A DNA stretch of 64,000 nucleotides from Pseudomonadota bacterium (GTDB taxonomy: Bacteria; Pseudomonadota; Gammaproteobacteria; Burkholderiales; JABEVD01), in NCBI GenBank assembly GCA_021802655.1, contig JAJZRP010000004.1:3288-67287 (forward strand). Reading direction: 5' to 3'. The position numbers were made by a program, and so were the translations under genes. Position 1 is the first letter of the stretch. The number at the start of each line of letters is the position of its first letter. The notes beneath the pieces were generated by a model that saw only the letters and a program-made list of their open reading frames with translations, was not told where the DNA came from and did no database searches. Positions 52,184 through 64,000 of this stretch are shown piece by piece.

Positions 52184-53182
52184 ATGAATCGCATCTGGAA
52201 AACCCTGCTGGTTTCCCTGCTGGCTTCCCTGCTGATCCACTTTTTGCTGCTGGGCTTTTTCCCCAAGATCACCTGGCCCGATTTCGGAAAGAAACCCATC
52301 GTTCTGGAAACCCGGATCGTCTCCCCGAAAAAACCGATTCGCTTCAAGCCGCTCGCCCCGCCAAGACCCAAGACCGCCAAACCCAAAGCTTCAGAAACAG
52401 GGGCGCCCCCCTCCATCGCCAGAACCGAATCCGCGAGCCCGCCGCAACTCACGAGCGCGCCCACGCCTGCAAGCATGCCCATGCCTGCGAGCACTCCCCG
52501 GGCGGCAAGCGCCCCGCTACCCGGACAGGAAAAAGAGGTCGGGGTGCCGAGTCACGCCGTCCTGACTTTCAATGTCTTCAGGGGCAACGTCAACGTGGGA
52601 ATCGCCGTCCATACCTGGGACATCACGGACGACGGGCGCTATGCGATCACGAACAGGGTCAGTGCGACAGGCATCTTCGCCCTTTTCGTCAAGGGCGCCA
52701 TGACCCAGACGAGCGAAGGGCGGGTGACCGAAAAGGGACTCCAGCCTGAACTCTACACGATCACCCGGGGAGGCGAGCAAAACCGGCAGGAAGCGCATTT
52801 CGACTGGAAAACCATGAAGCTCGAACTGGTCTCCAACGGGGTCAGCCAGGAAGTGGAGCTCGAACCCATGACCCAGGACCAGTTGAGTTTTCTCTACCAG
52901 TTCGCCTACACCCCCCCGAAAGAAGGCATTTTCAGTTTCCATTCGACAGACGGCAGGAAGATCGATATCTACGATTACCAAATCCTCGGAGAAGAAACCG
53001 TCCTCTCCGGGGCTAAAAAAATCAGGACATTGCACCTGAAAAAATTGCACGATGCCGGGGTGGAAGGAACCGAAATCTGGCTCGACGAAGACCATTACTA
53101 CTGGCCGGTGGCAGTGTTGATGACGGACAAAAACGGCGACACGATGAGGCAACTGATCTCGCAAATCGAGGAAAAACGATGA
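52184..53182 (+). CDS. DUF3108-like envelope protein with TM anchor and Pro-rich linker
   Basis: 332 aa. TM LLVSLLASLLIHFLLLGFF, then a Pro/Ala/Ser-rich spacer, then a beta-rich domain. Its position after purN recalls DUF3108 genes in other betaproteobacteria, from memory. Confidence 0.5.
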   Translation: MNRIWKTLLVSLLASLLIHFLLLGFFPKITWPDFGKKPIVLETRIVSPKKPIRFKPLAPPRPKTAKPKASETGAPPSIARTESASPPQLTSAPTPASMPMPASTPRAASAPLPGQEKEVGVPSHAVLTFNVFRGNVNVGIAVHTWDITDDGRYAITNRVSATGIFALFVKGAMTQTSEGRVTEKGLQPELYTITRGGEQNRQEAHFDWKTMKLELVSNGVSQEVELEPMTQDQLSFLYQFAYTPPKEGIFSFHSTDGRKIDIYDYQILGEETVLSGAKKIRTLHLKKLHDAGVEGTEIWLDEDHYYWPVAVLMTDKNGDTMRQLISQIEEKR

Positions 53183-53295
53183 CACGGATGCATCGTGATC
53201 AGGCGCCCGGACATTTCTCCATACCGCAATCAGGATTTCGGTGCCGAAGCAGGCCGACCCTGACGGCGGCAAGCATGCGCCCGCTCGACCCAAGC

Positions 53296-53324
53296 TTGTC
53301 ACAAAACCATCACAATTCTTTCAC
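53296..53324 (+). promoter_or_regulatory. three direct 7-bp repeats at 11-bp phasing (Pho-box-like / OmpR-family response-regulator site candidate)
   Basis: TTGTCAC-aaaa-CCATCAC-aatt-CTTTCAC, 74 nt upstream of the TBDR start. Compare the E. coli Pho box CTGTCAT-A(A/T)A(T/A)-CTGTCA(C/T). Confidence 0.3.
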
Positions 53325-53397
53325 GTTATCCTAAGTCTGGCTGCGTAAATTTCGCCCCACAAATTGGTTTTTTGTGACTTCTATAGGGGAGAAATGC

Positions 53398-55569
53398 ATG
53401 AAAAAGGGATTCGGTTTCAGGAAAAAGCTTATCGCTCAGCTGGTTTTGGGAAGCCTCTTCGCAGCAGGCCATGCCTTCGCGCAAGACGCGGTGGATCTGG
53501 GAACGGTGCAGAGCAATGCGGGAGACACCGGCGCCACAGGCCCCGGCACGGCGTCCTATGTGGCGCCCACCCAGGGTTCACTGGTCGCGACCCAGCCCCA
53601 GTCGATTATGAGCCAGCAATACATCCAGCAAAACGCTTCGGCGACTTCCAACTACACCGACATCGTCAACATCGCGCCATCCGTCTACAGCATTGACCCG
53701 AACGGCCCTGGCATGATGGAATCCCAGTCCGGCGGTCCTTACATCCGGGGCTTCCACGACGGGCAGTATAACGTCACGTTCGACGGCATTCCATGGGGCG
53801 ACTCGAACGACTTCACGCACCATTCGACCTCCTACTTCATGGCCCAGGATATAGGCGGCATCACGGTTGACCGCGGTCCGGGGGACGCCAGCAACATCGG
53901 CTATGCCACCTTCGGCGGCACCCTCGCCGTGCAATCCAAGAATCCGATGACTTCGACCAATTTCAATGCTTATGCAACGGTCGGAAGCTGGAATACCCGT
54001 ATGGTGGGCGGCGAATTCGACACAGGCGTGATGAAGAACTACGGAGACGGCGCTGCCTTCATCGACTACAGAAAGGTTCAAACGGACGGCTACCTGACCA
54101 ACAGCGGCCAGAAGCGCGGCAACCTGTTCGTCAAGTATGTGAAACCTGTTTCGGACACGACCGTGTTGACCTTCGTGACCATGCAGAACACGGTTCATCA
54201 GAACGTTCCTTATGGCGCGACCCTCTCGACCATCGCGCAGTATGGCAAGAATTACGGACTGAGCGCGAATCCGATGAGCCAGGACTATTACAACTACAAC
54301 TACGATTCGATCAACTCGGATTTTGAATACATCGGCCTGAATACCACACAGGGCAACTGGCAGATCGACAACAAGCTCTACACTTATGCCTACTACCACA
54401 ACGGCTTCAACGGTGCGCTTGTGGGGATCAACCAGCCCAACACGGGAGGGCTCTCTGCAGGCGACGTTCCCGGTGGCGCAATGTACATGAATTATCGTTC
54501 CTGGGGCGACATCCTGAAAACTTCCTATGCCATCGGCAAGGACAGCCTGGATATCGGCGCATGGATGGACCGCCAGAACAACAACCGCGGAGCATGGAAC
54601 ACGGATGCGACGCTCGGCAATGCATTCGTCAGCTGGACTGGCGGCAGGTTGATGACCGACTCATTGACCACCGTTCAGCCCTATGCCCAGTACAACTGGA
54701 AGCTCTCGGATGCCCTCACGGTCACGCCCGGGGTAAAATACTCGTCCTTCACCAGGACCATCAATGCCCCCATAAACAACGGCGGCAACCCAGCCTATGC
54801 CGGCAGCCAGACCTGGGGAAAGGCGCTTCCCTCGCTCGTCGCGCACTACATGATCCAGCCCAACTGGAGCGCCTATGCCCAGTATGCCGAAGGCTTTTTG
54901 GCGCCCAATATCAATGTGTTCTCGACAGCCGGCGGCACCCCGCTGCCTAGCGAGCTGAATCCCGAAACGACGCAGAACTTCCAGGTCGGCACAACCTGGA
55001 AGAGCAAGCAGCTCACCGTTTCCGGCGACGTCTACAAGATCGACTACACCAATCAGGCGCAGGCCATTGCGTGCGGCGCCTATACCTGCTACCAGAATAC
55101 CGGCGGGGTAAAATACAACGGCGTCGAGGGCGAGGCGACCTATGTCATGGGCTCCGGATTCAGCCTGTACGGCAACTATGCCATCAACAATTACACGATG
55201 AGCACTGCGGGCAACTACCTCACGGATGTTGCTAAATTTACAGCGACGGCAGGCGTGATCTACAATCAGGGACCGGCCTATGCCTCCCTGATCACCAAGG
55301 AAATCGGCGGCCGCTACGGCTTTGCACAGGATGCCAACGGCAATCCGATCCCCTTCTCGAGCTACGCGGTGACGAACTTCAACTCGAGCTATGATTTCAA
55401 GGGGCTGGCCGGCTGGGGCAAGGATGTAAAGGTCGGCTTCCAGATCAACAACATCTTCAACTACAACAACATCTACGATTCGGCAACCAACGACGGGACA
55501 ACCAACGCGCCGATGTACTTCGTGTATCCCGAGCGCAACTACGAGCTGACTCTGTCGATCGATCTGTGA
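53398..55569 (+). CDS. TonB-dependent outer membrane receptor
   Basis: ATG 53398 after GGGGAG. Signal peptide ...GHAFAQDA. Plug-domain blocks (IRGF..., NVTFDGIPWGD, ITVDRGPG). Long Tyr/Asn/Gly-rich barrel. 723 aa. Confidence 0.85.
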   Translation: MKKGFGFRKKLIAQLVLGSLFAAGHAFAQDAVDLGTVQSNAGDTGATGPGTASYVAPTQGSLVATQPQSIMSQQYIQQNASATSNYTDIVNIAPSVYSIDPNGPGMMESQSGGPYIRGFHDGQYNVTFDGIPWGDSNDFTHHSTSYFMAQDIGGITVDRGPGDASNIGYATFGGTLAVQSKNPMTSTNFNAYATVGSWNTRMVGGEFDTGVMKNYGDGAAFIDYRKVQTDGYLTNSGQKRGNLFVKYVKPVSDTTVLTFVTMQNTVHQNVPYGATLSTIAQYGKNYGLSANPMSQDYYNYNYDSINSDFEYIGLNTTQGNWQIDNKLYTYAYYHNGFNGALVGINQPNTGGLSAGDVPGGAMYMNYRSWGDILKTSYAIGKDSLDIGAWMDRQNNNRGAWNTDATLGNAFVSWTGGRLMTDSLTTVQPYAQYNWKLSDALTVTPGVKYSSFTRTINAPINNGGNPAYAGSQTWGKALPSLVAHYMIQPNWSAYAQYAEGFLAPNINVFSTAGGTPLPSELNPETTQNFQVGTTWKSKQLTVSGDVYKIDYTNQAQAIACGAYTCYQNTGGVKYNGVEGEATYVMGSGFSLYGNYAINNYTMSTAGNYLTDVAKFTATAGVIYNQGPAYASLITKEIGGRYGFAQDANGNPIPFSSYAVTNFNSSYDFKGLAGWGKDVKVGFQINNIFNYNNIYDSATNDGTTNAPMYFVYPERNYELTLSIDL

Positions 55570-55577
55570 GAACCTGA

Positions 55578-56258
55578 ATGAATATCGAAACTTTTCAACA
55601 CGTCGCCGAAACTTCCGGCGGAATCCTCTACCTGATGGGGCTGCTGCTTCTGGCAGCCCTGACGGTAGCCATCGAACGCAGCTGGTATCTCTGGAAAGTG
55701 ATCAGGCAGGGCGGCCAGATCATGTCCCGACTGGAGTCGGCAACGAAGGTGGAACATCAAACGCTGGAGCACCTGGGGGAAAGTTTTTCCCAGTTGCCCC
55801 ATGCCAGGGTGCTGACGGTCGCTTTGCAGCACGATCTCAACCACGACTTCGACCGCATTTCCGACAAGCTGGATGAATCCATCATGAGGGAAGCGCCCGG
55901 AATAGACCGATACCTATGGATCCTGGATACGATCGTGACCATGGCCCCGCTCCTGGGGCTCCTCGGCACCATCATCGGCATGTTCAATGCCTTTCAGGTG
56001 CTGGGAGATCCGGGCAATGCCCCGACCAAGGTCACGGGAGGAGTGGCCGAAGCATTGCTCGCCACAGCTTCCGGCCTCTTCATCGCGATCCTGGGCCTGT
56101 TTTTCTTCAATGCCTTGAGCAACCGGGTCCGCGTGATCATGCACCAGCTGGAGACGCTGAAAGTGATGCTGGTGAACCGCATGTATCCCCATTATCAGAA
56201 TGCCGCAGAAGTCAGGGCGAAGCAGGTCGTGTCCGACCTCAGATCGCGCGCGGTCTGA
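55578..56258 (+). CDS. exbB: MotA/TolQ/ExbB family proton channel
   Basis: 226 aa. MAPLLGLLGTIIGMFNAF and GGVAEALLATASGL signature helices. Confidence 0.85.
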   Translation: MNIETFQHVAETSGGILYLMGLLLLAALTVAIERSWYLWKVIRQGGQIMSRLESATKVEHQTLEHLGESFSQLPHARVLTVALQHDLNHDFDRISDKLDESIMREAPGIDRYLWILDTIVTMAPLLGLLGTIIGMFNAFQVLGDPGNAPTKVTGGVAEALLATASGLFIAILGLFFFNALSNRVRVIMHQLETLKVMLVNRMYPHYQNAAEVRAKQVVSDLRSRAV

Positions 56259-56269
56259 TCGGAGGCGGC

Positions 56270-56656
56270 ATGAAATATTTCGAAGTCAAGAAGGCACGGA
56301 TCGAGATCATTCCGATGATCGACATCATGTTCTTCCTGCTGATCTTCTTCATCATGATCACGCTGCACATGATCCCATCATCCGGGATAACTTCGAGCCT
56401 CGCCAAAAGCTCGACCGCCACCCCGCTCGATCAACCCAAAGTGGTTCTGAGCGTCGATGAGCAGGGCAATATCGGCATCGACGGCAGAACGGTCAGTCCG
56501 CCCGAACTGACTGCCATGCTGCAGCAGAAGGGGGCCAATACCATCGTCACCATAGCGGGCACCAAAGAGACTTCGCTTCAGCATCTGATGGACGTCATGG
56601 ATGCCTGCCGTTCTGCAGGTGTCACCCAGATCGGGCTGGCAGCCCGCAAGCAATAA
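56270..56656 (+). CDS. exbD: ExbD/TolR family protein
   Basis: ATG 56270 gives MKYFEVKKARIEIIPMIDIMFFLLIFFI...; 128 aa. Confidence 0.85.
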   Translation: MKYFEVKKARIEIIPMIDIMFFLLIFFIMITLHMIPSSGITSSLAKSSTATPLDQPKVVLSVDEQGNIGIDGRTVSPPELTAMLQQKGANTIVTIAGTKETSLQHLMDVMDACRSAGVTQIGLAARKQ

Positions 56657-56663
56657 GGCGATC

Positions 56664-57293
56664 ATGAAGTTCGCACTTTCCAGATCTGCCCTGATCGCGC
56701 TCGCACTCGAAAGCCTGATCATCGCGGTTTTTGCCGTGGTCCTGGAGCGTCAGCCAGTCAAGGAGAAACCCAAGCAGCCCGTGGTCATGCTGACCTTCCC
56801 GGCACTGCCCGATCCGCCCAAACCCCAGACGCCGCCGAAGCAGGAGAAACCGGTTTCCAGGCCCAGGCCCGTGCATCACCAGCAACCCAGGCCGGACCCT
56901 GTACAGCAGCCGAAGATCGCCGATGCTGCGCCTTCGACCATTCAGGCACCGGCGTCGCCGCCTGCTCCGCCGAAAGTCGAAAGCCCTGCTCCGGCACCGG
57001 ATATCGCAGCATCCTTCCGTAGCGCAGTAAGGGCCTCGGTTCAGGCCGCGGTGCATTACCCCTACGCCGCAAGGATGGCGCATGTTTCAGGAAAAGCCCT
57101 GGTTTCCTTCTCCTACCATGACGGTACGGTCAGCAACCCGTCGATCGTCACGTCGAGCGGATATTCCCTGCTCGACAATGCCGCGAAACAGGCCGTCGAA
57201 ACAGCTTCCTACCCCCCTCCCCCGCCCGAGCTGGCCGGAAGAGCTCTGCAGTTCCAGGTATGGGTGCGATTCAACCAGAACCAGGTGCAATAG
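56664..57293 (+). CDS. tonB: TonB family energy transducer
   Basis: ATG 56664. TM anchor, Pro-rich spacer (PDPPKPQTPPKQEKP...), C-terminal YPYAARMAHVSGKALVSF...SSGYSLLDNAAKQAV domain. Confidence 0.85.
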   Translation: MKFALSRSALIALALESLIIAVFAVVLERQPVKEKPKQPVVMLTFPALPDPPKPQTPPKQEKPVSRPRPVHHQQPRPDPVQQPKIADAAPSTIQAPASPPAPPKVESPAPAPDIAASFRSAVRASVQAAVHYPYAARMAHVSGKALVSFSYHDGTVSNPSIVTSSGYSLLDNAAKQAVETASYPPPPPELAGRALQFQVWVRFNQNQVQ

Positions 57294-57294
57294 C

Positions 57295-58653
57295 ATGAAA
57301 CTCGCGATCCAGTTATTCGCCATCCTGTCCACGGCACTTTTCCGGACGGCAGACGCGAATGCGCATGGCAGTCTCTACGCGGCCTATGTGGTGCTCGGAA
57401 ACAATGGACAGGGCATTGCTCGGGTCATAACCGGTGCACAGGATTGCCCTTCCATCGAATTCGACGGGAAGCCGGGAAAAATGCATTTCAGGGCCTCCCC
57501 TGGCAGCGTTCCGGCGCGCACCGGGTCGCTCAAGAATGCGCAGTTTCCCGTGCTGGTCTGCGAAGTGAAGTTGCCTCCTCATGTCGAACATATCAGCATT
57601 GCAGGAAAAGCGCTGCCAGTTCCCAAGAAGAATCCGCAGCGTATTGTCGTGATCGGCGATACGGGTTGCCGCATGAACCTGAGCGAGCATGCTTTCCAGT
57701 CCTGCACCGATCCGGAAAAATGGGCGTTCCGGCAAATCAGCACGGCAGCGGCGGCTTTCAAGCCAGATCTGGTGATCCATGTCGGCGACTACCTTTACCG
57801 GGAAAGCCCCTGCCCGAAAGGAGCAAAAGGATGCACAGGCAGCCCCTGGGGCTACGGGTTCGACTCGTGGCGGGCCGATTTTTTCGCCCCTGCAAAACGG
57901 CTCCTTGCCGCTGCGCCCTGGGTGATGGTCCGCGGCAACCACGAATCCTGTTTTCGCGCAGGCCAGGGATGGTTTCGCTTTCTCGATGCGCAACCCCTTG
58001 TTCCATCAAGGTCCTGCGACGATCCCGAAAACGATTCCCAGGGGGATTTCAGCGAACCCTATTCAGTGCCGGTCTCGCACGACACGCAGTTGATCGTGTT
58101 CGATTCGTCGAAAACCGCCAATTCTGCTTACTCCCCTGAAGACAGCACCTATCAGCGCTATCTGTCAGAATTCCGCAAAGTGGACGAACTGGCGGGCAGG
58201 GTGCCGCACAGCTTTTTCCTCAGCCATCATCCGGTGCTCGCTTTCGCTCCGGGAGAAGGGGAGGACAGCACGATCAAGCCTGGAAACAGGGGGCTGCAAT
58301 CCGTGATGCAGGCGCTTCATCCGGTACGCCTTTTTTCGCCTGGCATCGATGCGGCGTTTCACGGCCATGTCCATCTTTTCGAAGCGCTGGATTTTGCGGA
58401 CGATCACCCCGCCACTGTCGTGGCAGGAAATTCTGGAACGGCAACCGACAGTCCGCTCCCGAAAGCATTGCCTGAAGGCGCGCATCCGGCGCCGGGGGCA
58501 ATGGTGCGCCGAATCATCTCTGGGTCTGGAGTCGGCTTTCTGACCATCGAACGCATCGGCAAGCAATGGCTGCTGACCGAACGGAACCGCTACGGCAAAC
58601 CGCAAGTGCGCTGCACCCTGCGTGGCCAGTCCCTGCTATGTGCCAGGCTGTAG
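57295..58653 (+). CDS. secreted metallophosphoesterase with purple-acid-phosphatase-type metal-binding blocks
   Basis: ATG 57295, 1 nt after the tonB stop. Signal peptide MKLAIQLFAILSTALFRTADANA. Ordered blocks VIGDTG / HVGDYLY / VRGNHE / FLSHHP / FHGHVHLFE. Confidence 0.75.
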   Translation: MKLAIQLFAILSTALFRTADANAHGSLYAAYVVLGNNGQGIARVITGAQDCPSIEFDGKPGKMHFRASPGSVPARTGSLKNAQFPVLVCEVKLPPHVEHISIAGKALPVPKKNPQRIVVIGDTGCRMNLSEHAFQSCTDPEKWAFRQISTAAAAFKPDLVIHVGDYLYRESPCPKGAKGCTGSPWGYGFDSWRADFFAPAKRLLAAAPWVMVRGNHESCFRAGQGWFRFLDAQPLVPSRSCDDPENDSQGDFSEPYSVPVSHDTQLIVFDSSKTANSAYSPEDSTYQRYLSEFRKVDELAGRVPHSFFLSHHPVLAFAPGEGEDSTIKPGNRGLQSVMQALHPVRLFSPGIDAAFHGHVHLFEALDFADDHPATVVAGNSGTATDSPLPKALPEGAHPAPGAMVRRIISGSGVGFLTIERIGKQWLLTERNRYGKPQVRCTLRGQSLLCARL

Positions 58654-58702
58654 TCGAATGGCGCTCGACTCGCTCATCTTCATGGTAGGATAAGGACCCG
58701 CA

Positions 58703-59371
58703 ATGGAGCTGGATATGCGCGTCCTGATTATCGAAGACGATCCCATGATCGGCCGGAATCTCGCCCTGGCGCTGAAGGAAGCCGGGCTGATCGCGGACTG
58801 GGTTCAGGACGGCATCCAGGGGCTGGATGCTGCACAAGCAGGGCATTATGCCGTGGTTCTGCTCGACCTGGGGTTACCCCGAAAATCCGGGACGGACGTA
58901 TTGAAGTCGATGCGTGACCGAGGAATCGACACGCCTCTCCTCATCATCACCGCAAGGGATGGAATCGATGACCGCGTCGAAGGGCTGGACCTGGGTGCCG
59001 ACGATTATCTCGTCAAGCCTTTCAGCTTCAAGGAACTGCTGGCGAGGATACGCGCGATCGTGCGCAGGCAGGGCGGCCACGCCGCATCGATCATCGGCAA
59101 TAGCGAAATCGCCCTCAACCTGGCATCCCACGAAGCCACCTACCGGGGCAAGACTCTGGTCCTTTCGGCCAAGGAATTCGCCCTGCTTCACACGCTCGTC
59201 GCCCATCCCGGAACAATCTATTCCCGCAGTCAGATCGAGGAGCGCATCTACGGATGGGGCGAAGAAGTCGAAAGCAATGTCGTCGACGTGATCATCCATT
59301 ATTTGCGCAGGAAATTCGACAACGAGATCATCCGCAATGTGCGCGGCATAGGCTGGATGGTGGTGAAATGA
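58703..59371 (+). CDS. OmpR/PhoB-family response regulator (QseB/PmrA-like)
   Basis: 222 aa. Receiver domain (VLLDLGLP, KPF), C-terminal winged helix (LSAKEFALLHTL, VRGIGW). Confidence 0.9.
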   Translation: MELDMRVLIIEDDPMIGRNLALALKEAGLIADWVQDGIQGLDAAQAGHYAVVLLDLGLPRKSGTDVLKSMRDRGIDTPLLIITARDGIDDRVEGLDLGADDYLVKPFSFKELLARIRAIVRRQGGHAASIIGNSEIALNLASHEATYRGKTLVLSAKEFALLHTLVAHPGTIYSRSQIEERIYGWGEEVESNVVDVIIHYLRRKFDNEIIRNVRGIGWMVVK

Positions 59372-60696
59372 ACTCGCTGAAGAAGCAGCTCATCATTCTG
59401 TTGGTCGGGCTGCTGAGCATAGTCGGCGTGCTCGCCGGCAGTATTTCCTATGTGCTCGCCAAAAACGACGCCGGGGAATTGCTCGACCATCAGATGCGCG
59501 AGGTCGCTCGGAGCATCGACGAAGGCTCTCAGCTTCCCGCGATGCAGACCCGGTTTTTCACCGAAACCGAGGAAGAGCGGGAAAGCGATTTCGTCATCCA
59601 GGCCTGGTATGAAAATGAGCCGGTTCGTTCGTCCCGTCCCGATTTCACGCTGCCAAGGGGAAATAAAACCGGGTTTTCTGACCTGACGATGCATGGCAAT
59701 AAATGGCGGACCTATACCATCGTTTATCCCGATCGCACCGTGCAGGTTTCCCTGTCAGGGGAAGTCCGCCGGGAAATCGCTACCGCTGCCGCTCTGCGTT
59801 CGGTATTGCCGATAGCCGGGCTGATCCCGCTTTCCTGGATTCTCGTAGCCGTGGTTGTCGGGCGCATCCTTAAACCGCTCGACGCCGTCACGGCAGCGGC
59901 GACCCAGCGGGATGCCTCGAGTCTCGACCCATTGCCTGCCGACAATGTCCCGCAGGAAGTTGCTCCCCTGATCGCTGAAATGAATGCCCTGCTGCTGCGC
60001 CTCGGGGATGCGCTCGAATCGCAGCGCCAGTTCGTGTCGAATGCCGCACACGAACTGCGCACGCCGCTGGCCGCGCTTCAACTGCAGATTGAGAACCTTT
60101 CCCTTTGCCAGTCCCGGCAGGATATGGATACGCGTATCGGAGAATTGAAAGCGGGCGTCCATCGTGCTTCCCACCTCGTCAACCAGTTGCTGAGAATGGC
60201 TCGCTTCGAAGCGGAAAAGCCGTCTGCCAAGCACAATGCCAATCTCGGCCAGATCGTAAAAAACTGCATCGGCAGTCTCATTCCGCTTGCCGAAAAAAAG
60301 GGAATCGACCTGGGAATGGTGCGCGACGAAGAGATCGTCATCCAGGCGAATTCGGATGCACTGCGCATCCTGTTCGACAATCTCATCGACAACGCCATAC
60401 GCTATACGCCGTCCAATGGCAGGATCGACATCAGCGTAATCTCGACAGGGAAAAAAGCTTTTGTCGAAATCGCCGACAACGGCCCCGGTATCCCCGAGCA
60501 CCTGCTGCCGCGCGTCTTCGACCGTTTTTTCCGAGCAAGTGGTCAGGTGATCGAAGGGAGCGGCATCGGGCTCGCCATCGTGAAAGCGATAGCGGACCGG
60601 GAATCGGCCGAAGTCGCATTGGCCAACAGGCAGGACAATGCAGGCCTTGTTGCAAAGATCTCTTTCGATATCCTGAGCCAGGGCGCTGCACAATAA
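59368..60696 (+). CDS. two-TM sensor histidine kinase (QseC-like)
   Basis: ATGA overlap with the regulator gene. Periplasmic loop between two TM helices. H-box SNAAHELRTPLA, N-box DNLIDNAIRYTP, G-boxes DNGPGIP and GSGIGLAIV. Confidence 0.9.
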   Translation: MNSLKKQLIILLVGLLSIVGVLAGSISYVLAKNDAGELLDHQMREVARSIDEGSQLPAMQTRFFTETEEERESDFVIQAWYENEPVRSSRPDFTLPRGNKTGFSDLTMHGNKWRTYTIVYPDRTVQVSLSGEVRREIATAAALRSVLPIAGLIPLSWILVAVVVGRILKPLDAVTAAATQRDASSLDPLPADNVPQEVAPLIAEMNALLLRLGDALESQRQFVSNAAHELRTPLAALQLQIENLSLCQSRQDMDTRIGELKAGVHRASHLVNQLLRMARFEAEKPSAKHNANLGQIVKNCIGSLIPLAEKKGIDLGMVRDEEIVIQANSDALRILFDNLIDNAIRYTPSNGRIDISVISTGKKAFVEIADNGPGIPEHLLPRVFDRFFRASGQVIEGSGIGLAIVKAIADRESAEVALANRQDNAGLVAKISFDILSQGAAQ

Positions 60697-60767: not shown

Positions 60768-61676
60768 TCAGACCGGAACGATGCCCTTGAGGGTCGCGAA
60801 GCAGGTTTCCTTGAGCACGGAAAGAAAGTCGGCGAAATAGGCGCGATTTCCCATATCCTCAGTCGTTGCGGCATAGAGGCTGGACCAGAGCCCCTTCTTC
60901 CCGATGCGCTTCGCGATCACGTAATCGTGTTCCAGGTAATTGCCGAGCCCCCAGCTCGGCAGCGCCGCGATGCCGCGCCGGCTCGCCACAAGCTGCAGGA
61001 TCGCAACGGTCAGCTCCGCCGTGCGGCGGGCGGGATGGATACCCAGAGGAATCAGCACTTCGCGCAAGAGATCGATCCGCTCATCGGGCACTGGATAGGA
61101 GATCAGCGTCTCATCCAGAAAATCGGACGGCTCGATGATGCGCCTGGATTTCAATTTATGGTCGACTGGCAATACGGCGAGCATCTCGAATTTGAACAGG
61201 GGATGGTAAACGATGCCTTCCCTCTTCACCGCGTCCGAAAGGATGACGATATCGGCGCGGTCGCCGAGCAGGGCGATCGGGTCGCTGTGAAAGCCAGAAA
61301 CAAGATCGAGCTCCACTTCGGGCCACGATTTCCTGAATGCATCCATCACCGGCATGAGCCAGTCGAAGCAGGTATGGCATTCGAGCGCGATTCTCAGGGT
61401 TCCCGCATGAATCGCCTGCATTTGGGACAAATCCCGCTCCGCCGTGCGGATTTCCGCAAGAATCGCCTTCCCGAGATCGGCAAGCCTCTTTCCCGCATCG
61501 GTCAGGCCGAATGACCTTCCTTTCCTTTCCAGCATTGCGAGGCCGTAATGCTCCTCCAGCGCCCTGATCTGGTGGGAAACGGCTGACTGGGTGAGATGGA
61601 CACGCTTCGCAGCAGCCGAGACGTTTCCGGATTCGTTTATTGCAATGAGCGTTTTCAGATGTCTTATTTCAAGCAT
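60768..61676 (-). CDS. metR: LysR-family activator of methionine synthase genes
   Basis: [45 protein letters not shown] parallels the E. coli MetR N-terminus. Divergent from metE. Confidence 0.85.
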
Positions 61677-61686
61677 TTTTCATATA

Positions 61687-61699
61687 TGAATATTTTTCA
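61687..61699. promoter_or_regulatory. MetR box (TGAA-N5-TTCA) in the metR-metE intergenic region
   Basis: TGAATATTTTTCA is an exact fit to the TGAA-N5-TTCA consensus. It is followed by the inverted repeat TGTTTT-ATCA-AAAACA (61700-61715) and TATAAAAT (61743-61750) as a possible -10. Confidence 0.5.
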
Positions 61700-61778
61700 T
61701 GTTTTATCAAAAACATTTCATTTTTCTAATGTTATCACACTCTATAAAATGACCTCACGAATTTCACGAGGACACATC

Positions 61779-64000
61779 ATGGCAATCTCTCACAACCTCG
61801 GTTTCCCGAGAATAGGCGCGCAGCGCGAACTGAAAACGCTTCTTGAAGCCTACTGGAAGGGGCAGACAAATCTGCAAAACCTGGACGAAGGGGCGCTAGC
61901 CCTGCGCAGAAGCAACTGGATCAGGCAGCGCGATGCGGGAATGGATCTCATCCCAGTCGGGGACTTCTCCCTTTACGACCATATGCTCGACATGACCGCA
62001 ACCCTTGGGGCGATTCCGGAGCGCTTCGCGCACAAGGGAGAAGTCGATGCCGACTGCTATTTCTCGATGGCGCGCGGATCGAAAAGCGCCGCAGCGATGG
62101 AAATGACCAAATGGTTCGACACGAATTACCATTACCTCGTGCCGGAATTCACCTCAAAAACGAAATTCAGCATCAGCTCAATGCGGCTTTTCCGTGAAAT
62201 CGAAGAGGCGCAGGAGCTCGGCATCGCTCCGAAACCTGTTCTGGTAGGCCCTCTCACCTATCTTTATCTCGGAAAGGAGAAGGAGGAAGGATTCGAAAGA
62301 ATTTCGCTCTTCGAAGATTTGATCCCCCTCTACCATGAAATTCTCGGAAAACTGGCAGACATGGGGATCGAATGGGTTCAGATCGACGAGCCTGCCCTTG
62401 CGCTCGATCTGCCCGAAGAATGGCTGGAGCGTTTCATTCGCGCCTATTCCGAACTCGAATCCTCGGGCATCAGGACATTGCTCGCCACCTATTTCGGTTC
62501 AGTGGAGGAACACGCGGATCTTCTCAAGTCGCTGCCGGTACAGGGACTTCATATCGATTTGTGCCGGGGGAGGAATCAGCTCGATTCGTTTCTGAAGGAT
62601 TATCCCCGGGAAAAAATCCTTTCCCTTGGGGTCGTCGACGGCAGGAACATCTGGCGCGCCGACCTGGAAAAGGAATTTTCCTTCCTGAAACCGGTTCACG
62701 ACAGGCTTCAGGAAAGGCTCTGGGTCGCGCCAAGCTGCTCCCTCATCCACTGCCCCGTAGACCTGGAAGCGGAGGCCGGGCTCGACAGGGAAATCAGAAG
62801 CTGGCTCGCCTTTTCCGCGCAGAAACTGAAGGAGGTGGCGTTACTGAAGAAGGGGCTGAACGAAGGCGGGAGCGCGATCCGCGGCGCCCTCGAGTCCTCG
62901 TCCCTGATCCTGGCGGAGCGGCGCGCTTCTCACAGGGTATCGAATCCCGTGGTGGAAGCGAGGCTGGCCAAGCTCACGGACTCGGATCATAAAAGGGCGA
63001 ACCCCTTCGAAGAGAGGCAAAAAGCGCAAAGAGCACGGTTCGGGCTGCCGCTCTTTCCCACCACGACCATCGGCTCCTTCCCCCAGACAGAGGCCATCAG
63101 GAAGAGCCGCGCGGCTTTCAGGAAAAAGGAGGCGGGCTTTCTCGACTATCTGGAAGCCATGCGCGCTGAAATCCGCCTCGCAGTCGGGAAACAGGAAGCT
63201 TTGGGACTGGACGTTCTCGTGCACGGGGAGGCGGAAAGAGCCGACATGGTCGAGTATTTCGGCGAGCATCTTTGGGGCTATGCGTTCACTGATAACGGCT
63301 GGGTGCAGAGCTACGGTTCGAGGTGCGTCAAGCCGCCCATCATTTACGGCGACATTTCGAGGCCTGAGGCGATCACGGTCGCCTGGAGCAAGTATGCAAA
63401 ATCACTGACCGAAAAGCCCGTGAAGGGCATGCTCACCGGCCCCATCACCATGCTGCAATGGTCTTTCGTCCGGGACGACCAGCCGCGCAGCAAAACCGCT
63501 CTGCAGCTCGCCCTCGCGATAAGGGACGAGGTTCTGGATCTGGAAAAGGCGGGGATAGGCATGATCCAGATCGACGAGCCCGCCATCCGGGAAGGGCTTC
63601 CCCTCAAGAAACCGGATTGGGCCGAATATCTGGATTGGGCGGTCAAGGCGTTCAGGGTCGCAAGCTCGGGAGTCCGGGACGACACCCAGATCCACACCCA
63701 CATGTGTTACGCGGAATTCAACGACATATTGCCTGCCATAGCGGAACTGGACGCCGACGTCATCACCATAGAAACATCGCGCTCCGACATGGAACTGCTG
63801 GACGGATTCGGAAAATTCGACTATCCCAACGAGATCGGGCCAGGAGTGTATGACATCCATTCGCCGCGCATTCCGGAAACCCGGGAAATGGCGCGCCTTC
63901 TGGAGAGGGCGTGCAGCGTGATCGATCCCGAAAAGCTGTGGGTGAATCCCGACTGCGGTCTCAAGACCCGCGGCTGGGCTGAAGTCGAAGCCGCCCTCGG
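61779..64000 (+). CDS. metE: cobalamin-independent methionine synthase, 3'-partial (runs off the window end)
   Basis: Not in the ORF track because there is no in-window stop. I translated it by hand: [19 protein letters not shown]..., [10 protein letters not shown], ...[10 protein letters not shown]..., [16 protein letters not shown]. Open in one frame for 2222 nt. Confidence 0.95.

What the first reader, a model, noticed from the sequence alone, without database searches (positions are those of the whole stretch)
53398..60696. Self-contained TonB-dependent import locus carrying a purple-acid-phosphatase-like esterase and its own two-component system
Seen in the sequence: the receptor (53398-55569), ExbB, ExbD, TonB and a signal-peptide-bearing metallophosphoesterase (57295-58653) are separated by only 8, 11, 7 and 1 nt, so they form one operon. 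After a 49-nt gap, an OmpR-type regulator and a two-TM sensor kinase overlap by ATGA. The esterase shows, in order, the five metal-ligand blocks of purple-acid-phosphatase-type enzymes (VIGDTG, HVGDYLY, VRGNHE, FLSHHP, FHGHVHLFE), preceded by an N-terminal beta-rich domain of about 100 aa.

Established knowledge: TonB-dependent receptors are classically linked to siderophore, B12 or glycan uptake and usually share a housekeeping Ton motor.

Inference: this may be a dedicated module for outer-membrane import followed by periplasmic dephosphorylation, perhaps for an organophosphate. The Pho-box-like repeats upstream fit that idea. I cannot tell from the sequence alone whether the architecture has already been described.
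Basis: partly seen in the sequence, partly recalled or inferred. Interest (0 to 1): 0.6.

Follow-up and report, generated by a model that had tools for sequence, protein, structure and literature searches.

The report
TonB-powered organophosphate scavenging gene module
This is a real seven-gene cluster in which an outer-membrane importer with its own energy motor sits next to a secreted phosphate-cleaving enzyme and a sensor-regulator pair. It is most likely an uncharacterised system for harvesting phosphorus from bulky organic phosphate compounds.

Summary

The MPE has all seven purple-acid-phosphatase (PAP) metal ligands. Its AlphaFold model matches PAPs and PhoD. By sequence it belongs to a large unnamed family.

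Synteny is not chance. 36 of 70 evaluable MPE loci carry a linked TBDR or Ton-motor genes. All 7 TBDR orthologues examined lie next to a secreted phosphoesterase. In four of these, an unrelated PF01663 (NPP-type) enzyme replaces the MPE. One of the four is a close relative with the identical gene order.

Canonical Pho boxes are enriched upstream of MPE-linked TBDRs (45% against 1-2% background). The window's repeats are weaker as Pho boxes but sit in a conserved promoter block. That block also holds a 17-mer that tracks the kinase-regulator pair. No Fur box is present.

Best reading: phosphate-limitation-driven TonB-dependent import of a bulky phosphoester or phosphoanhydride, followed by periplasmic hydrolysis.

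The substrate, the kinase's signal and the enzyme activity are untested. This is a new variant of a known kind (Bacteroidetes PUS loci, Pho-regulated TBDRs).

The parts
53296..53351 (+). Conserved promoter block. Four half-sites lie in 11-bp register with A/T-rich 4-nt linkers: TTGTCAC 53296-53302, CCATCAC 53307-53313, CTTTCAC 53318-53324 and TCCTAAG 53329-53335. It also holds the 17-mer TAAGTCTGGCTGCGTAA (53332-53348) and a -10 candidate TAAATT (53346-53351).
   Evidence: The block is conserved in L001, L084, L059, L202, L163, L086, L209, L210, L211 and L215, while the flanking sequence diverges. The 17-mer occurs once in the window against 0.06 expected. Assignment to PhoB and/or the local regulator is inference.
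53398..55569 (+). TonB-dependent outer-membrane receptor, 723 aa. It has a signal peptide and no N-terminal signalling extension.
   Evidence: Pfam Plug + TonB_dep_Rec_b-barrel. No NCBIfam equivalog; there is only a weak C-terminal PqqU/YncD similarity. Orthologues at 53-90% identity occur in Sideroxydans, Gallionella, Sulfuriferula and Rhodocyclaceae.
55578..56258 (+). ExbB (226 aa), proton-channel subunit of a dedicated Ton motor.
   Evidence: Pfam MotA_ExbB E 3e-31. The gap to the TBDR is 8 nt.
56270..56656 (+). ExbD (128 aa).
   Evidence: Pfam ExbD E 1e-27. The gap is 11 nt.
56664..57293 (+). TonB (209 aa), with an N-terminal TM helix, a Pro-rich spacer and a TonB_C domain.
   Evidence: Pfam TonB_C E 7e-13 and TIGR01352 above its cut-off. 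The gap is 7 nt.
57295..58653 (+). Periplasmic PAP-like metallophosphoesterase (452 aa). It has a signal peptide, an N-terminal beta-sandwich (~27-107), a catalytic domain (~116-377) and a C-terminal beta domain (~404-451). Ten cysteines are invariant.
   Evidence: Pfam Metallophos only. Seven PAP ligands are invariant. AF2 pLDDT 84.9. Foldseek best hits are lupin PAP PPD1 (E 2.5e-12), PhoD and mammalian PAPs. The start lies 1 nt after the tonB stop.
58703..59371 (+). OmpR-family response regulator (222 aa; the start is possibly at 58715).
   Evidence: Pfam Response_reg + Trans_reg_C. The nearest NCBIfam models are PmrA/QseB, both below cut-off. Orthologues at 62-93% identity flank the TBDR in L001, L084, L059, L086, L209, L210, L211 and L215.
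59368..60696 (+). Sensor histidine kinase (442 aa) with two TM helices and a ~110-aa periplasmic 2CSK_N-type domain.
   Evidence: Pfam HisKA, HATPase_c and 2CSK_N. The nearest models, QseC/PmrB, are below cut-off. It overlaps the RR gene by ATGA. The acidic ExxE patch is not conserved among orthologues.

Best explanation
The locus is a phosphorus-scavenging module.

- **Induction.** Under phosphate limitation the operon is switched on through the Pho-box-like repeats, probably by PhoB. The locus-encoded kinase-regulator pair adds a second, unknown input, probably through the adjacent TAAGTCT element.
- **Import.** The TBDR, energised by its own ExbB-ExbD-TonB motor, imports a phosphorylated compound too large for porins. 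The best guess is a phosphodiester or phosphoanhydride substrate, such as nucleotides, dinucleotides, oligonucleotides or polyphosphate; phytate is also possible.
- **Hydrolysis.** The periplasmic PAP-like metallophosphoesterase then cleaves the compound. The released phosphate enters the cell through ordinary phosphate transporters.

**Shown here:** gene content and order, domain families, PAP-type ligands and fold, conserved synteny, enzyme-slot replacement, and conserved promoter elements.

**Inferred:** co-transcription, regulation by phosphate, the direction and identity of the transported substrate, and the enzyme activity.
For: - **Tight spacing.** Gaps of 8, 11, 7 and 1 nt on one strand.
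- **MPE-side census.** 36 of 70 evaluable loci have a linked TBDR or ExbB/ExbD: 10 with the full TBDR-ExbB/D-(TonB)-MPE order, 2 cut before the TBDR, 9 TBDR-MPE, 14 MPE then TBDR, and 1 divergent. A Novosphingobium plasmid also carries the pair.
- **TBDR-side census.** 7 of 7 orthologues (53-75% identity) are adjacent to a secreted phosphoesterase. The MPE fills the slot in L209 (Sideroxydans sp. CL21), L212 and L213. A PF01663 NPP-type enzyme fills it in L210, L211, L214 and L215.
- **Enzyme replacement.** L215 has the same order as the window, with ExbB 85%, ExbD 82%, TBDR 75% and RR/HK 72% identity, but an NPP-type enzyme in place of the MPE.
- **Pho boxes.** Sense-strand Pho-box scores of at least 11/14 occur upstream of 45% of MPE-linked TBDRs, against 1.1% (2.2% in low-GC sequence) of background windows.
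- **P-related neighbours.** Other loci place the module next to OlsB-like, LpxH/PlcP-like, GT4, DgkA, PPK1 and SixA genes, or a PstS-like protein.
- **No Fur box**.
- **Enzyme identity.** PAP ligands are invariant. The fold matches PAP PPD1, which is a diphosphonucleotide phosphatase/phosphodiesterase, and PhoD.
- **Precedents.** Pi-regulated exbB2D2-tonB4 in P. aeruginosa (PMC4971064); low-Pi TBDT plus periplasmic phosphoesterase loci in Flavobacterium (PMC8115612); TBDRs in the Caulobacter PhoB regulon (PMC11208175).
Against: - There are no expression, transport or enzyme data for any member.
- The window's half-sites match the CTGTCAT consensus only 9/14 per pair, which is not above chance on its own. 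They always co-occur with the local TCS or its relatives, so they might be that regulator's operator instead.
- The TCS resembles PmrAB/QseBC, not PhoBR.
- About half of the MPE homologues are stand-alone genes among housekeeping neighbours, without Pho boxes.
- 61% of homologues are predicted outer-membrane lipoproteins, so in those the site of action (periplasmic face or cell surface) is open.
- The Pho-box enrichment counts related genomes (several Undibacterium species), so the loci are not independent.
Confidence: 0.6

Rival explanations
1. A classical metal or siderophore uptake system. The TBDR and its Ton motor import iron or another metal. The phosphoesterase is an accessory that releases the metal from a phosphate-containing chelate or needs that metal as cofactor.
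For: JGI's automatic names for the TBDR homologues are 'iron complex outermembrane receptor protein'. PAP-type enzymes use Fe(III), which is established knowledge. The host lineage appears related to iron oxidisers, since Mtr/PioB genes lie near one relative. One relative has a ChaN-like gene downstream.
Against: There is no Fur box: the best score is 10/19, which equals the window median. Pho boxes are enriched instead. The enzyme slot alternates between an Fe-type PAP-like enzyme and an alkaline-phosphatase-superfamily enzyme with different metal chemistry, so a shared metal-supply role is unlikely. The automatic name is a generic orthology label.
Confidence: 0.08
2. An envelope-stress or LPS-remodelling unit under a PmrAB/QseBC-like system. 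The periplasmic phosphoesterase removes phosphate groups from lipid A or core. The TBDR linkage reflects regulation rather than a shared pathway.
For: The best NCBIfam matches of RR and HK are PmrA/QseB and QseC/PmrB. RND efflux genes flank the module in L084, L086, L210 and Novosphingobium. Many MPE homologues are outer-membrane lipoproteins.
Against: All of those matches are far below the equivalog cut-offs. The PmrB-type ExxE patch is not conserved. The TBDR-phosphoesterase pair persists where no TCS is adjacent (L212, L214, L087 and many Burkholderiales loci). A dedicated Ton motor makes no sense for an LPS-modifying enzyme.
Confidence: 0.07
3. Import and hydrolysis occur as proposed, but phosphorus nutrition is not the purpose. 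Possible purposes are carbon or nucleoside acquisition, or removal of a signalling or toxic phosphoester (extracellular nucleotides, cyclic dinucleotides, xenobiotic organophosphates). The local TCS would sense that compound.
For: A dedicated periplasm-sensing kinase is conserved with the TBDR in three different gene arrangements. This is typical of substrate-responsive utilisation loci. The window's repeats are only weak Pho boxes.
Against: Canonical Pho boxes occur in TCS-less relatives. Neighbours in other loci are P-starvation genes: lipid-remodelling genes, ppk and a PstS-like gene. No catabolic genes for an organic moiety are present in the operon.
Confidence: 0.17
4. The adjacency is a chance or lineage-specific accident, and the genes are functionally unrelated.
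For: About half of the MPE homologues have no TBDR nearby.
Against: The linkage recurs in Nitrosomonadales-like, Burkholderiales, Moraxellaceae (Aquirhabdus) and Sphingomonadales genomes, in at least four arrangements. It also survives replacement of the enzyme family.
Confidence: 0.02

Closest known systems
Bacteroidetes phosphate utilisation systems (PUS; low-Pi-inducible PusCD/TBDT loci with periplasmic phosphomono- and diesterases; Lidbury et al., PMC8115612)
   Same: An outer-membrane TonB-dependent transporter is co-localised with secreted or periplasmic phosphoesterases. The proposed logic is the same: import of an organophosphate, then periplasmic cleavage under P limitation.
   Different: There is no SusD-like lipoprotein. 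The enzyme families differ (PAP-like MPE or PF01663 enzyme). The locus carries its own ExbB-ExbD-TonB and its own two-component system. The host is a betaproteobacterium. Neither system has a demonstrated substrate.
Pho-regulated TonB-dependent receptors and Ton motors in Proteobacteria (Caulobacter PhoB regulon, PMC11208175; P. aeruginosa phdA-pdtB-exbB2D2-tonB4 operon, PMC4971064; TBDT-phytase pairs, PMC3400609)
   Same: TBDRs and even a separate ExbBD-TonB set are under phosphate control. TBDRs are found adjacent to a phosphate-releasing enzyme.
   Different: In those cases the TBDR, the motor and the enzyme are not one compact operon. The enzymes are different (phytase, LapA and others). 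None carries a QseC/PmrB-like kinase-regulator pair.
Purple acid phosphatases (plant PPD1 3zk4, mammalian TRAP/uteroferrin) and PhoD (2yeq)
   Same: The window MPE has the same five motifs with the seven metal ligands, including the GDxxY tyrosine. It has the same fold with an N-terminal beta domain.
   Different: Sequence similarity is at noise level: phmmer E 0.2 against PAP chains. There is no Pur_ac_phosph_N Pfam match, and the PhoD match is below cut-off. The window MPE has an extra C-terminal beta domain and ten conserved cysteines, and its family is bacterial and periplasmic or lipoprotein. Colour and pH optimum are unknown.
PmrAB / QseBC / BqsRS-type envelope two-component systems
   Same: An OmpR-family regulator with a two-TM kinase carrying a 2CSK_N-type periplasmic domain. 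These are the best-scoring named models.
   Different: Scores are well below the equivalog cut-offs. The metal-binding ExxE motif is not conserved. The target operon is a TBDR-phosphoesterase unit.

Membership tests
Purple acid phosphatase (PAP) type metallophosphoesterase | Five conserved blocks (GDxG, GDxxY, GNH(D/E), VxxH, GHxH) supplying seven metal ligands, including the Fe(III)-binding tyrosine | tested here: met
   D122, D165, Y168, N215 (+H216), H311, H358 and H360 are present and invariant in 26 homologues.
Purple acid phosphatase (PAP) type metallophosphoesterase | Significant sequence similarity to established PAPs, or the Pur_ac_phosph_N domain | tested here: not met
   phmmer against PDB: PAP chains only at E 0.2. 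Pfam: Metallophos only, with PhoD below cut-off. NCBIfam: no family.
Purple acid phosphatase (PAP) type metallophosphoesterase | PAP fold: N-terminal beta domain plus a beta-alpha-beta-alpha-beta catalytic sandwich | tested here: met
   The AF2 model (pLDDT 84.9) has as top Foldseek hits PAP PPD1 3zk4 (E 2.5e-12), PhoD 2yeq and human, pig and rat PAPs. TM-scores are about 0.45-0.65.
Purple acid phosphatase (PAP) type metallophosphoesterase | Fe(III)-M(II) centre with tyrosinate charge-transfer colour and phosphatase activity | not testable with these tools
   Requires purified protein.
TonB-dependent transporter with dedicated Ton complex | Plug + 22-strand barrel receptor, plus ExbB (MotA_ExbB), ExbD and TonB with a C-terminal domain | tested here: met
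   All Pfam domains score above their gathering cut-offs. TIGR01352 tonB_Cterm scores above its cut-off.
Pho regulon member | Pho box (two or more 7-bp CTGTCAT-like repeats with A/T-rich 4-bp linkers, 11-bp period) replacing the -35 region | tested here: inconclusive
   The window has three or four phased half-sites with AAAA/AATT linkers, but each pair matches only 9/14, which is not above chance alone. The block is conserved in orthologous promoters. Canonical boxes are enriched upstream of MPE-linked TBDRs elsewhere.
Pho regulon member | PhoB-dependent induction under phosphate limitation | not testable with these tools
   Needs expression data or PhoB binding assays.
Fur-regulated iron uptake locus | Fur box in the promoter | tested here: not met
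   The best match to the 19-bp consensus is 10/19, equal to the median of all windows of that size.
PmrAB / QseBC two-component systems | Score above the NCBIfam equivalog cut-off | tested here: not met
   PmrA 219 against 330; QseB 209 against 345; QseC 219 against 475; PmrB 172 against 314.
PhoBR | Equivalog-level match; a kinase without a periplasmic sensor domain | tested here: not met
   PhoB TIGR02154 scores 156 against 296, and PhoR 150 against 334. The kinase has a ~110-aa periplasmic 2CSK_N domain.
Bacteroidetes PUS/PUL-type loci | SusC-like TBDT paired with a SusD-like lipoprotein | tested here: not met
   No SusD-like gene is present; the operon content is fully accounted for.

The most novel reading that the evidence does not exclude
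This TBDR subfamily would be the first TonB-dependent importer for condensed or diester phosphates (polyphosphate, nucleotides/dinucleotides or oligonucleotides) in Proteobacteria. It would form a modular 'organophosphate utilisation locus' with an interchangeable hydrolase slot (PAP-like or NPP-like). Its promoter would integrate PhoB with a dedicated periplasm-sensing two-component system that recognises the substrate or a companion cue through the TAAGTCT element.
Probability: 0.25. Interest if true: 0.75.

Novelty: new variant of a known kind. Interest (0 to 1): 0.55.

Why it matters
How Gram-negative bacteria get bulky organic or condensed phosphates across the outer membrane is largely unresolved. 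TonB-dependent uptake has been proposed from co-expression in Flavobacterium and Caulobacter, but no substrate-transporter pair has been demonstrated.

This module offers a compact, widely distributed test case:
- The MPE family has more than 6000 homologues and more than 550 matching stretches among the genome collection's one-per-species representative genomes.
- The module occurs in a cultured strain, Sideroxydans sp. CL21.
- It provides a natural experiment, because the hydrolase is swapped between two unrelated enzyme families. This narrows the likely substrate chemistry to bonds that both families cleave.

It also defines a large uncharacterised bacterial PAP-like family and a candidate dual-input promoter. 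The lineages involved live in iron-rich, phosphate-sorbing habitats and in wastewater, so the system may matter for phosphorus cycling there.

Tried and rejected
1. **Fur/iron regulation.** No Fur box was found.
2. **PmrB-like metal sensing.** The acidic ETEEERE patch in the kinase's periplasmic domain is not conserved in orthologues.
3. **A known RNA element in the leader.** Rfam found no match in the window at gathering thresholds, and none in 53100-53450 at E<=1.
4. **A sigma-54 promoter in the 17-mer.** The GG/GC spacing is inconsistent between orthologues (read directly).
5. **Novosphingobium pLA3 TCS as an orthologue.** It is only 30-36% identical, so it is generic.
6. **Metagenome scan with the 17-mer**. 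Most of the 120 loci are chance matches. Only L163, L202 and L127 are related.
7. **Naming the TBDR from solved structures.** Only weak partial hits to YncD/PqqU were found.
8. **Naming the replacement NPP-type enzyme.** There are no PDB sequence hits and only faint PhoY/PafA/sulfatase NCBIfam matches.
10. **Literature searches** for a described TBDR + metallophosphoesterase/PAP module returned nothing specific.
11. **Gene calling in loci.** My crude caller missed the MPE ORF in 11-12 loci. The census therefore rests on tblastn hits, not on that caller.

Full report
**Observation**

- TBDR 53398-55569
- ExbB 55578-56258
- ExbD 56270-56656
- TonB 56664-57293
- metallophosphoesterase (MPE) 57295-58653
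- response regulator (RR) 58703-59371
- histidine kinase (HK) 59368-60696

All are on the + strand with ATG starts. The gaps are 8, 11, 7, 1 and 49 nt, and RR and HK overlap by ATGA.

Pfam confirms each family: Plug + barrel, MotA_ExbB, ExbD, TonB_C, Metallophos, Response_reg + Trans_reg_C, and 2CSK_N/HAMP/HisKA/HATPase_c. GC content is flat across the locus at 0.56-0.60, so nothing suggests recent import. The rest of the window is housekeeping: purM, purN, DUF3108, hda, IleRS, IspH, UbiD, sulfite reductase, an AsmA-like protein and a LysR regulator. No RNA genes were found.

**The enzyme**

The 452-aa protein has a cleavable signal peptide. It matches only the generic Metallophos Pfam model; PhoD is below cut-off, and no NCBIfam model matches.

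It has more than 6000 homologues in the protein collection. None carries a name more specific than 'metallophosphoesterase' or 'serine/threonine protein phosphatase'.

In an alignment of 26 homologues that are 48-88% identical to the window protein, the seven PAP-type metal ligands are invariant: D122, D165, Y168, N215, H311, H358 and H360. H216 and ten cysteines are also invariant.

An AlphaFold2 model built from that alignment is confident (pLDDT 84.9, pTM 0.88). It shows an N-terminal beta domain, a catalytic sandwich and a C-terminal beta domain. Foldseek against the PDB gives these top hits:
- lupin PAP PPD1 (E 2.5e-12)
- Bacillus PhoD
- mammalian PAPs

By sequence alone, PAP chains score only E 0.2. 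It therefore works like a PAP-type binuclear phosphoesterase, but it belongs to a distinct, uncharacterised bacterial family.

73 of the 120 listed homologues carry a lipobox without Asp at +2, so they are predicted outer-membrane lipoproteins. The window protein has a plain signal peptide instead.

**Census from the enzyme side**

A scan of the genome collection (one genome per species) found 556 matching stretches, and the best 80 loci were kept. Using tblastn with the window proteins, 70 loci had usable flanks. Of these, 36 had a linked homologous TBDR or ExbB/ExbD:

| Arrangement | Loci |
|---|---|
| TBDR-ExbB/D-(TonB)-MPE | 10 |
| Same, but contig cut before the TBDR | 2 |
| TBDR-MPE directly | 9 |
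| MPE followed by TBDR | 14 |
| Divergent TBDR-ExbBD-TonB | 1 |
| No linked TBDR | 34 |

The 34 unlinked loci lie mostly among housekeeping genes such as metY, holA and leuS.

Carriers span Oxalobacteraceae, Comamonadaceae, Rhodocyclaceae, Gallionella, Casimicrobiaceae, Burkholderia, Cupriavidus, Dyella and Aquirhabdus. A Novosphingobium plasmid carries a TBDR-MPE pair.

Several loci place the pair next to genes typical of phosphate-starvation responses. These are an OlsB-like acyltransferase, an LpxH/PlcP-like phosphoesterase, a GT4 glycosyltransferase, DgkA, PPK1 and SixA in L023, L030 and L071. One locus has a PstS-like binding protein right after the MPE.

**Census from the transporter side**

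The TBDR has many orthologues at 50-90% identity in Sideroxydans, Gallionella, Sulfuriferula and Rhodocyclaceae. This suggests the window comes from a Nitrosomonadales-like betaproteobacterium.

All seven orthologues whose contigs I read sit next to a secreted phosphoesterase:

| Locus | Source | Gene order |
|---|---|---|
| L209 | Sideroxydans sp. CL21 | RR-HK-TBDR-ExbB-ExbD-TonB-MPE-YncE-like-DUF347 |
| L212 | metagenome contig | TBDR-ExbB-ExbD-TonB-MPE |
| L213 | metagenome contig | ExbB-ExbD-TonB-MPE-TBDR |
| L210 | Sulfuriferula | RR-HK-TBDR-NPP |
| L211 | Rhodocyclaceae | RR-HK-TBDR-NPP |
| L214 | MAG (GCA_021783175.1) | TBDR-ExbB-ExbD-TonB-NPP |
| L215 | MAG (GCA_021848825.1) | TBDR-ExbB-ExbD-TonB-NPP-RR-HK |

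Here NPP means a PF01663 'type I phosphodiesterase/nucleotide pyrophosphatase' protein of about 500 aa with a signal peptide, unrelated to the MPE.

L215 is the key case. Its other six proteins are orthologous to the window's: ExbB 85%, ExbD 82%, TBDR 75%, RR 72%, HK 72% and TonB 54% identity, in the same order. The hydrolase slot, however, holds the other enzyme family.

Two unrelated secreted phosphoesterases occupying the same position is the strongest argument that selection acts on 'TonB-dependent transport plus phosphoester cleavage'. It also argues against the TBDR merely supplying a cofactor metal. PAP-type and alkaline-phosphatase-superfamily enzymes use different metals (established knowledge).

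**Regulation**

Upstream of the TBDR lie TTGTCAC-AAAA-CCATCAC-AATT-CTTTCAC (53296-53324). Each adjacent pair of half-sites matches the E. coli Pho-box consensus only 9/14. Such matches are not rarer than chance in the window: 9 found against 10.5 expected.

Comparative data give the repeats weight.
- In 33 upstream regions of MPE-linked TBDRs, the best sense-strand Pho-box score is at least 11/14 in 45% and at least 10/14 in 88%. The background figures are 1.1% and 8% for all 300-nt windows of the same loci, and 2.2% and 13% for low-GC windows. Examples are ATGTCATAAAACTGTCAT and GTGTCATTAAGCTGTCAT.
- The caveat is that several loci are congeneric (Undibacterium), so they are not independent.
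- In the Nitrosomonadales-like orthologues, a block of about 55 nt is conserved while the flanks diverge. The block has three or four half-sites in 11-bp register with A/T-rich linkers. They are followed by yTAAGTCTnnnTGCsTA and a TAnnnT -10 candidate.

The TAAGTCT element (17-mer at 53332-53348; 1 occurrence against 0.06 expected) tracks the two-component system.
- It is present in every promoter whose locus carries the adjacent TCS: window, L001, L084, L059, L163, L202, L086, L209, L210, L211 and L215.
- It is absent from L212, L214 and L087, which lack an adjacent TCS.
- A metagenome scan also found it upstream of a DUF347-lipoprotein-RR operon whose regulator is 57% identical to the window's.

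I infer a composite promoter with distal Pho boxes for PhoB and a proximal operator for the local regulator. This is not shown, and the local regulator could bind the repeats as well. There is no Fur box and no Rfam match in the leader.

**The two-component system**

RR and HK score best against PmrA/QseB and QseC/PmrB, but far below the equivalog cut-offs. They score lower still against PhoB/PhoR. The kinase has a periplasmic 2CSK_N-type domain, and its acidic patch is not conserved in orthologues. The signal therefore cannot be named.

The pair is found with the TBDR in three arrangements:
- downstream on the same strand (window, L001, L084, L215)
- upstream on the same strand (L059, L202, L209-L211)
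- upstream and divergent (L086)

In L086 the TCS is 57-63% identical to the window's although the TBDR is only 36% identical. The TCS is thus a genuine, recurrent part of the module in this lineage, but it is not universal.

**Mechanism and rivals**

Best supported (about 0.6) is the following sequence.
1. Phosphate limitation, plus an unknown periplasmic cue, induces the operon.
2. The TBDR, with its own motor, imports a phosphorylated compound too large for porins.
3. The periplasmic PAP-like enzyme cleaves it, and Pi enters through standard transporters.

The closest structural match (PPD1) is a diphosphonucleotide phosphatase/phosphodiesterase, and the replacement enzyme is of the nucleotide pyrophosphatase/phosphodiesterase type. 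My substrate guess is therefore phosphodiester or phosphoanhydride compounds: nucleotides, dinucleotides, oligonucleotides or polyphosphate. Phytate remains possible. This guess is inference.

Rivals, as scored in the Rival explanations section:
- a non-nutritional or carbon-directed utilisation locus (0.17)
- metal uptake (0.08)
- PmrAB-style envelope remodelling (0.07)
- chance adjacency (0.02)

**Comparison with known systems and novelty**

The general logic is already proposed elsewhere:
- Flavobacterium PUS loci, with low-Pi-inducible TBDT/SusCD plus periplasmic phosphoesterases (PMC8115612)
- TBDRs in the Caulobacter PhoB regulon (PMC11208175)
- TBDT-phytase pairs (PMC3400609)
- a Pi-regulated extra Ton motor, exbB2D2-tonB4, in P. 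aeruginosa (PMC4971064)

I found no description of the following combination: this TBDR subfamily, a dedicated Ton motor, an interchangeable PAP-like or NPP-like hydrolase, and a QseC/PmrB-like TCS with its own promoter element. None of its parts is characterised.

I therefore rate it a new variant of a known kind. It is of moderate interest and readily testable, because a cultured carrier exists (Sideroxydans sp. CL21).

Noticed in passing
L215:8001-15383 (GCA_021848825.1), compared with window 53398-60696: A close relative has the identical seven-gene order with orthologous TBDR, ExbB, ExbD, TonB, RR and HK (54-85% identity). A PF01663 nucleotide-pyrophosphatase/phosphodiesterase-type protein takes the place of the PAP-like enzyme. 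This is a clean non-orthologous displacement.
   Followed up: yes
window 53332-53348; also L059:5804-5820, L086:5738-5754, L127:7230-7246: The 17-mer TAAGTCTG(G/C)CTGC(G/C)TAA is found in the promoters of loci that carry the adjacent kinase-regulator pair. It is absent where the pair is absent. It also lies upstream of a DUF347-lipoprotein-regulator operon in L127, whose regulator is 57% identical to the window's. It may be that regulator family's operator.
   Followed up: partly
L209:14465-16316 (Sideroxydans sp. CL21): A YncE-like seven-bladed beta-propeller and a DUF347 membrane protein follow the MPE. The window TBDR's only PDB sequence hits are YncD/PqqU, whose E. coli gene neighbours yncE (the neighbourhood is from my own knowledge, not checked here). 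The meaning is unknown.
   Followed up: no
L023, L030, L071 (genes flanking the TBDR-MPE pair): The pair sits beside an OlsB-like acyltransferase, an LpxH/PlcP-like phosphoesterase, a GT4 glycosyltransferase, DgkA, PPK1 and a SixA-like phosphatase. This set looks like phosphate-starvation lipid remodelling plus polyphosphate metabolism.
   Followed up: partly
Undibacterium loci L012, L019, L050, L073 and others: A different conserved arrangement: beta-lactamase-fold serine hydrolase, then MPE, a strong Pho box, TBDR, a porin-like 397-aa protein and a small (142-aa) PstS-like protein.
   Followed up: partly
L020, L022, L042 and CP099603.1 (L083:7884-10636): In Comamonadaceae the MPE is followed by a cytochrome b561/b6-like membrane protein. 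In L020, L022 and L042 a second, unrelated 397-aa secreted metallophosphoesterase comes next.
   Followed up: no
P0001-P0120 (MPE homologues): About 61% carry a lipobox with no Asp at +2, so they are predicted outer-membrane lipoproteins. The window protein and its nearest relatives have a plain signal peptide. The site of action may differ between clades.
   Followed up: partly
L084:4741-5931, compared with window 53183-53397: In the syntenic relative GCA_027438685.1, a chromate-transporter gene lies between DUF3108 and the TBDR. It is absent from the window. The right flank also differs: RND efflux + MarR there, a LysR regulator here.
   Followed up: no
L084, L086, L210, L082 (Novosphingobium pLA3): RND efflux genes repeatedly flank the module. 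This could be coincidence or a link to the two-component system.
   Followed up: no
window 53298-53306 and 53370-53378: A perfect 9-nt inverted repeat (GTCACAAAA / TTTTGTGAC) pairs the first half-site with the sequence just before the ribosome-binding site. It is not conserved in the Gallionella orthologue.
   Followed up: partly
window 61500-62500: GC content drops to about 0.51 downstream of the divergently oriented LysR gene (60768-61676, minus strand). No long ORF is listed there, and it was not examined further.
   Followed up: no
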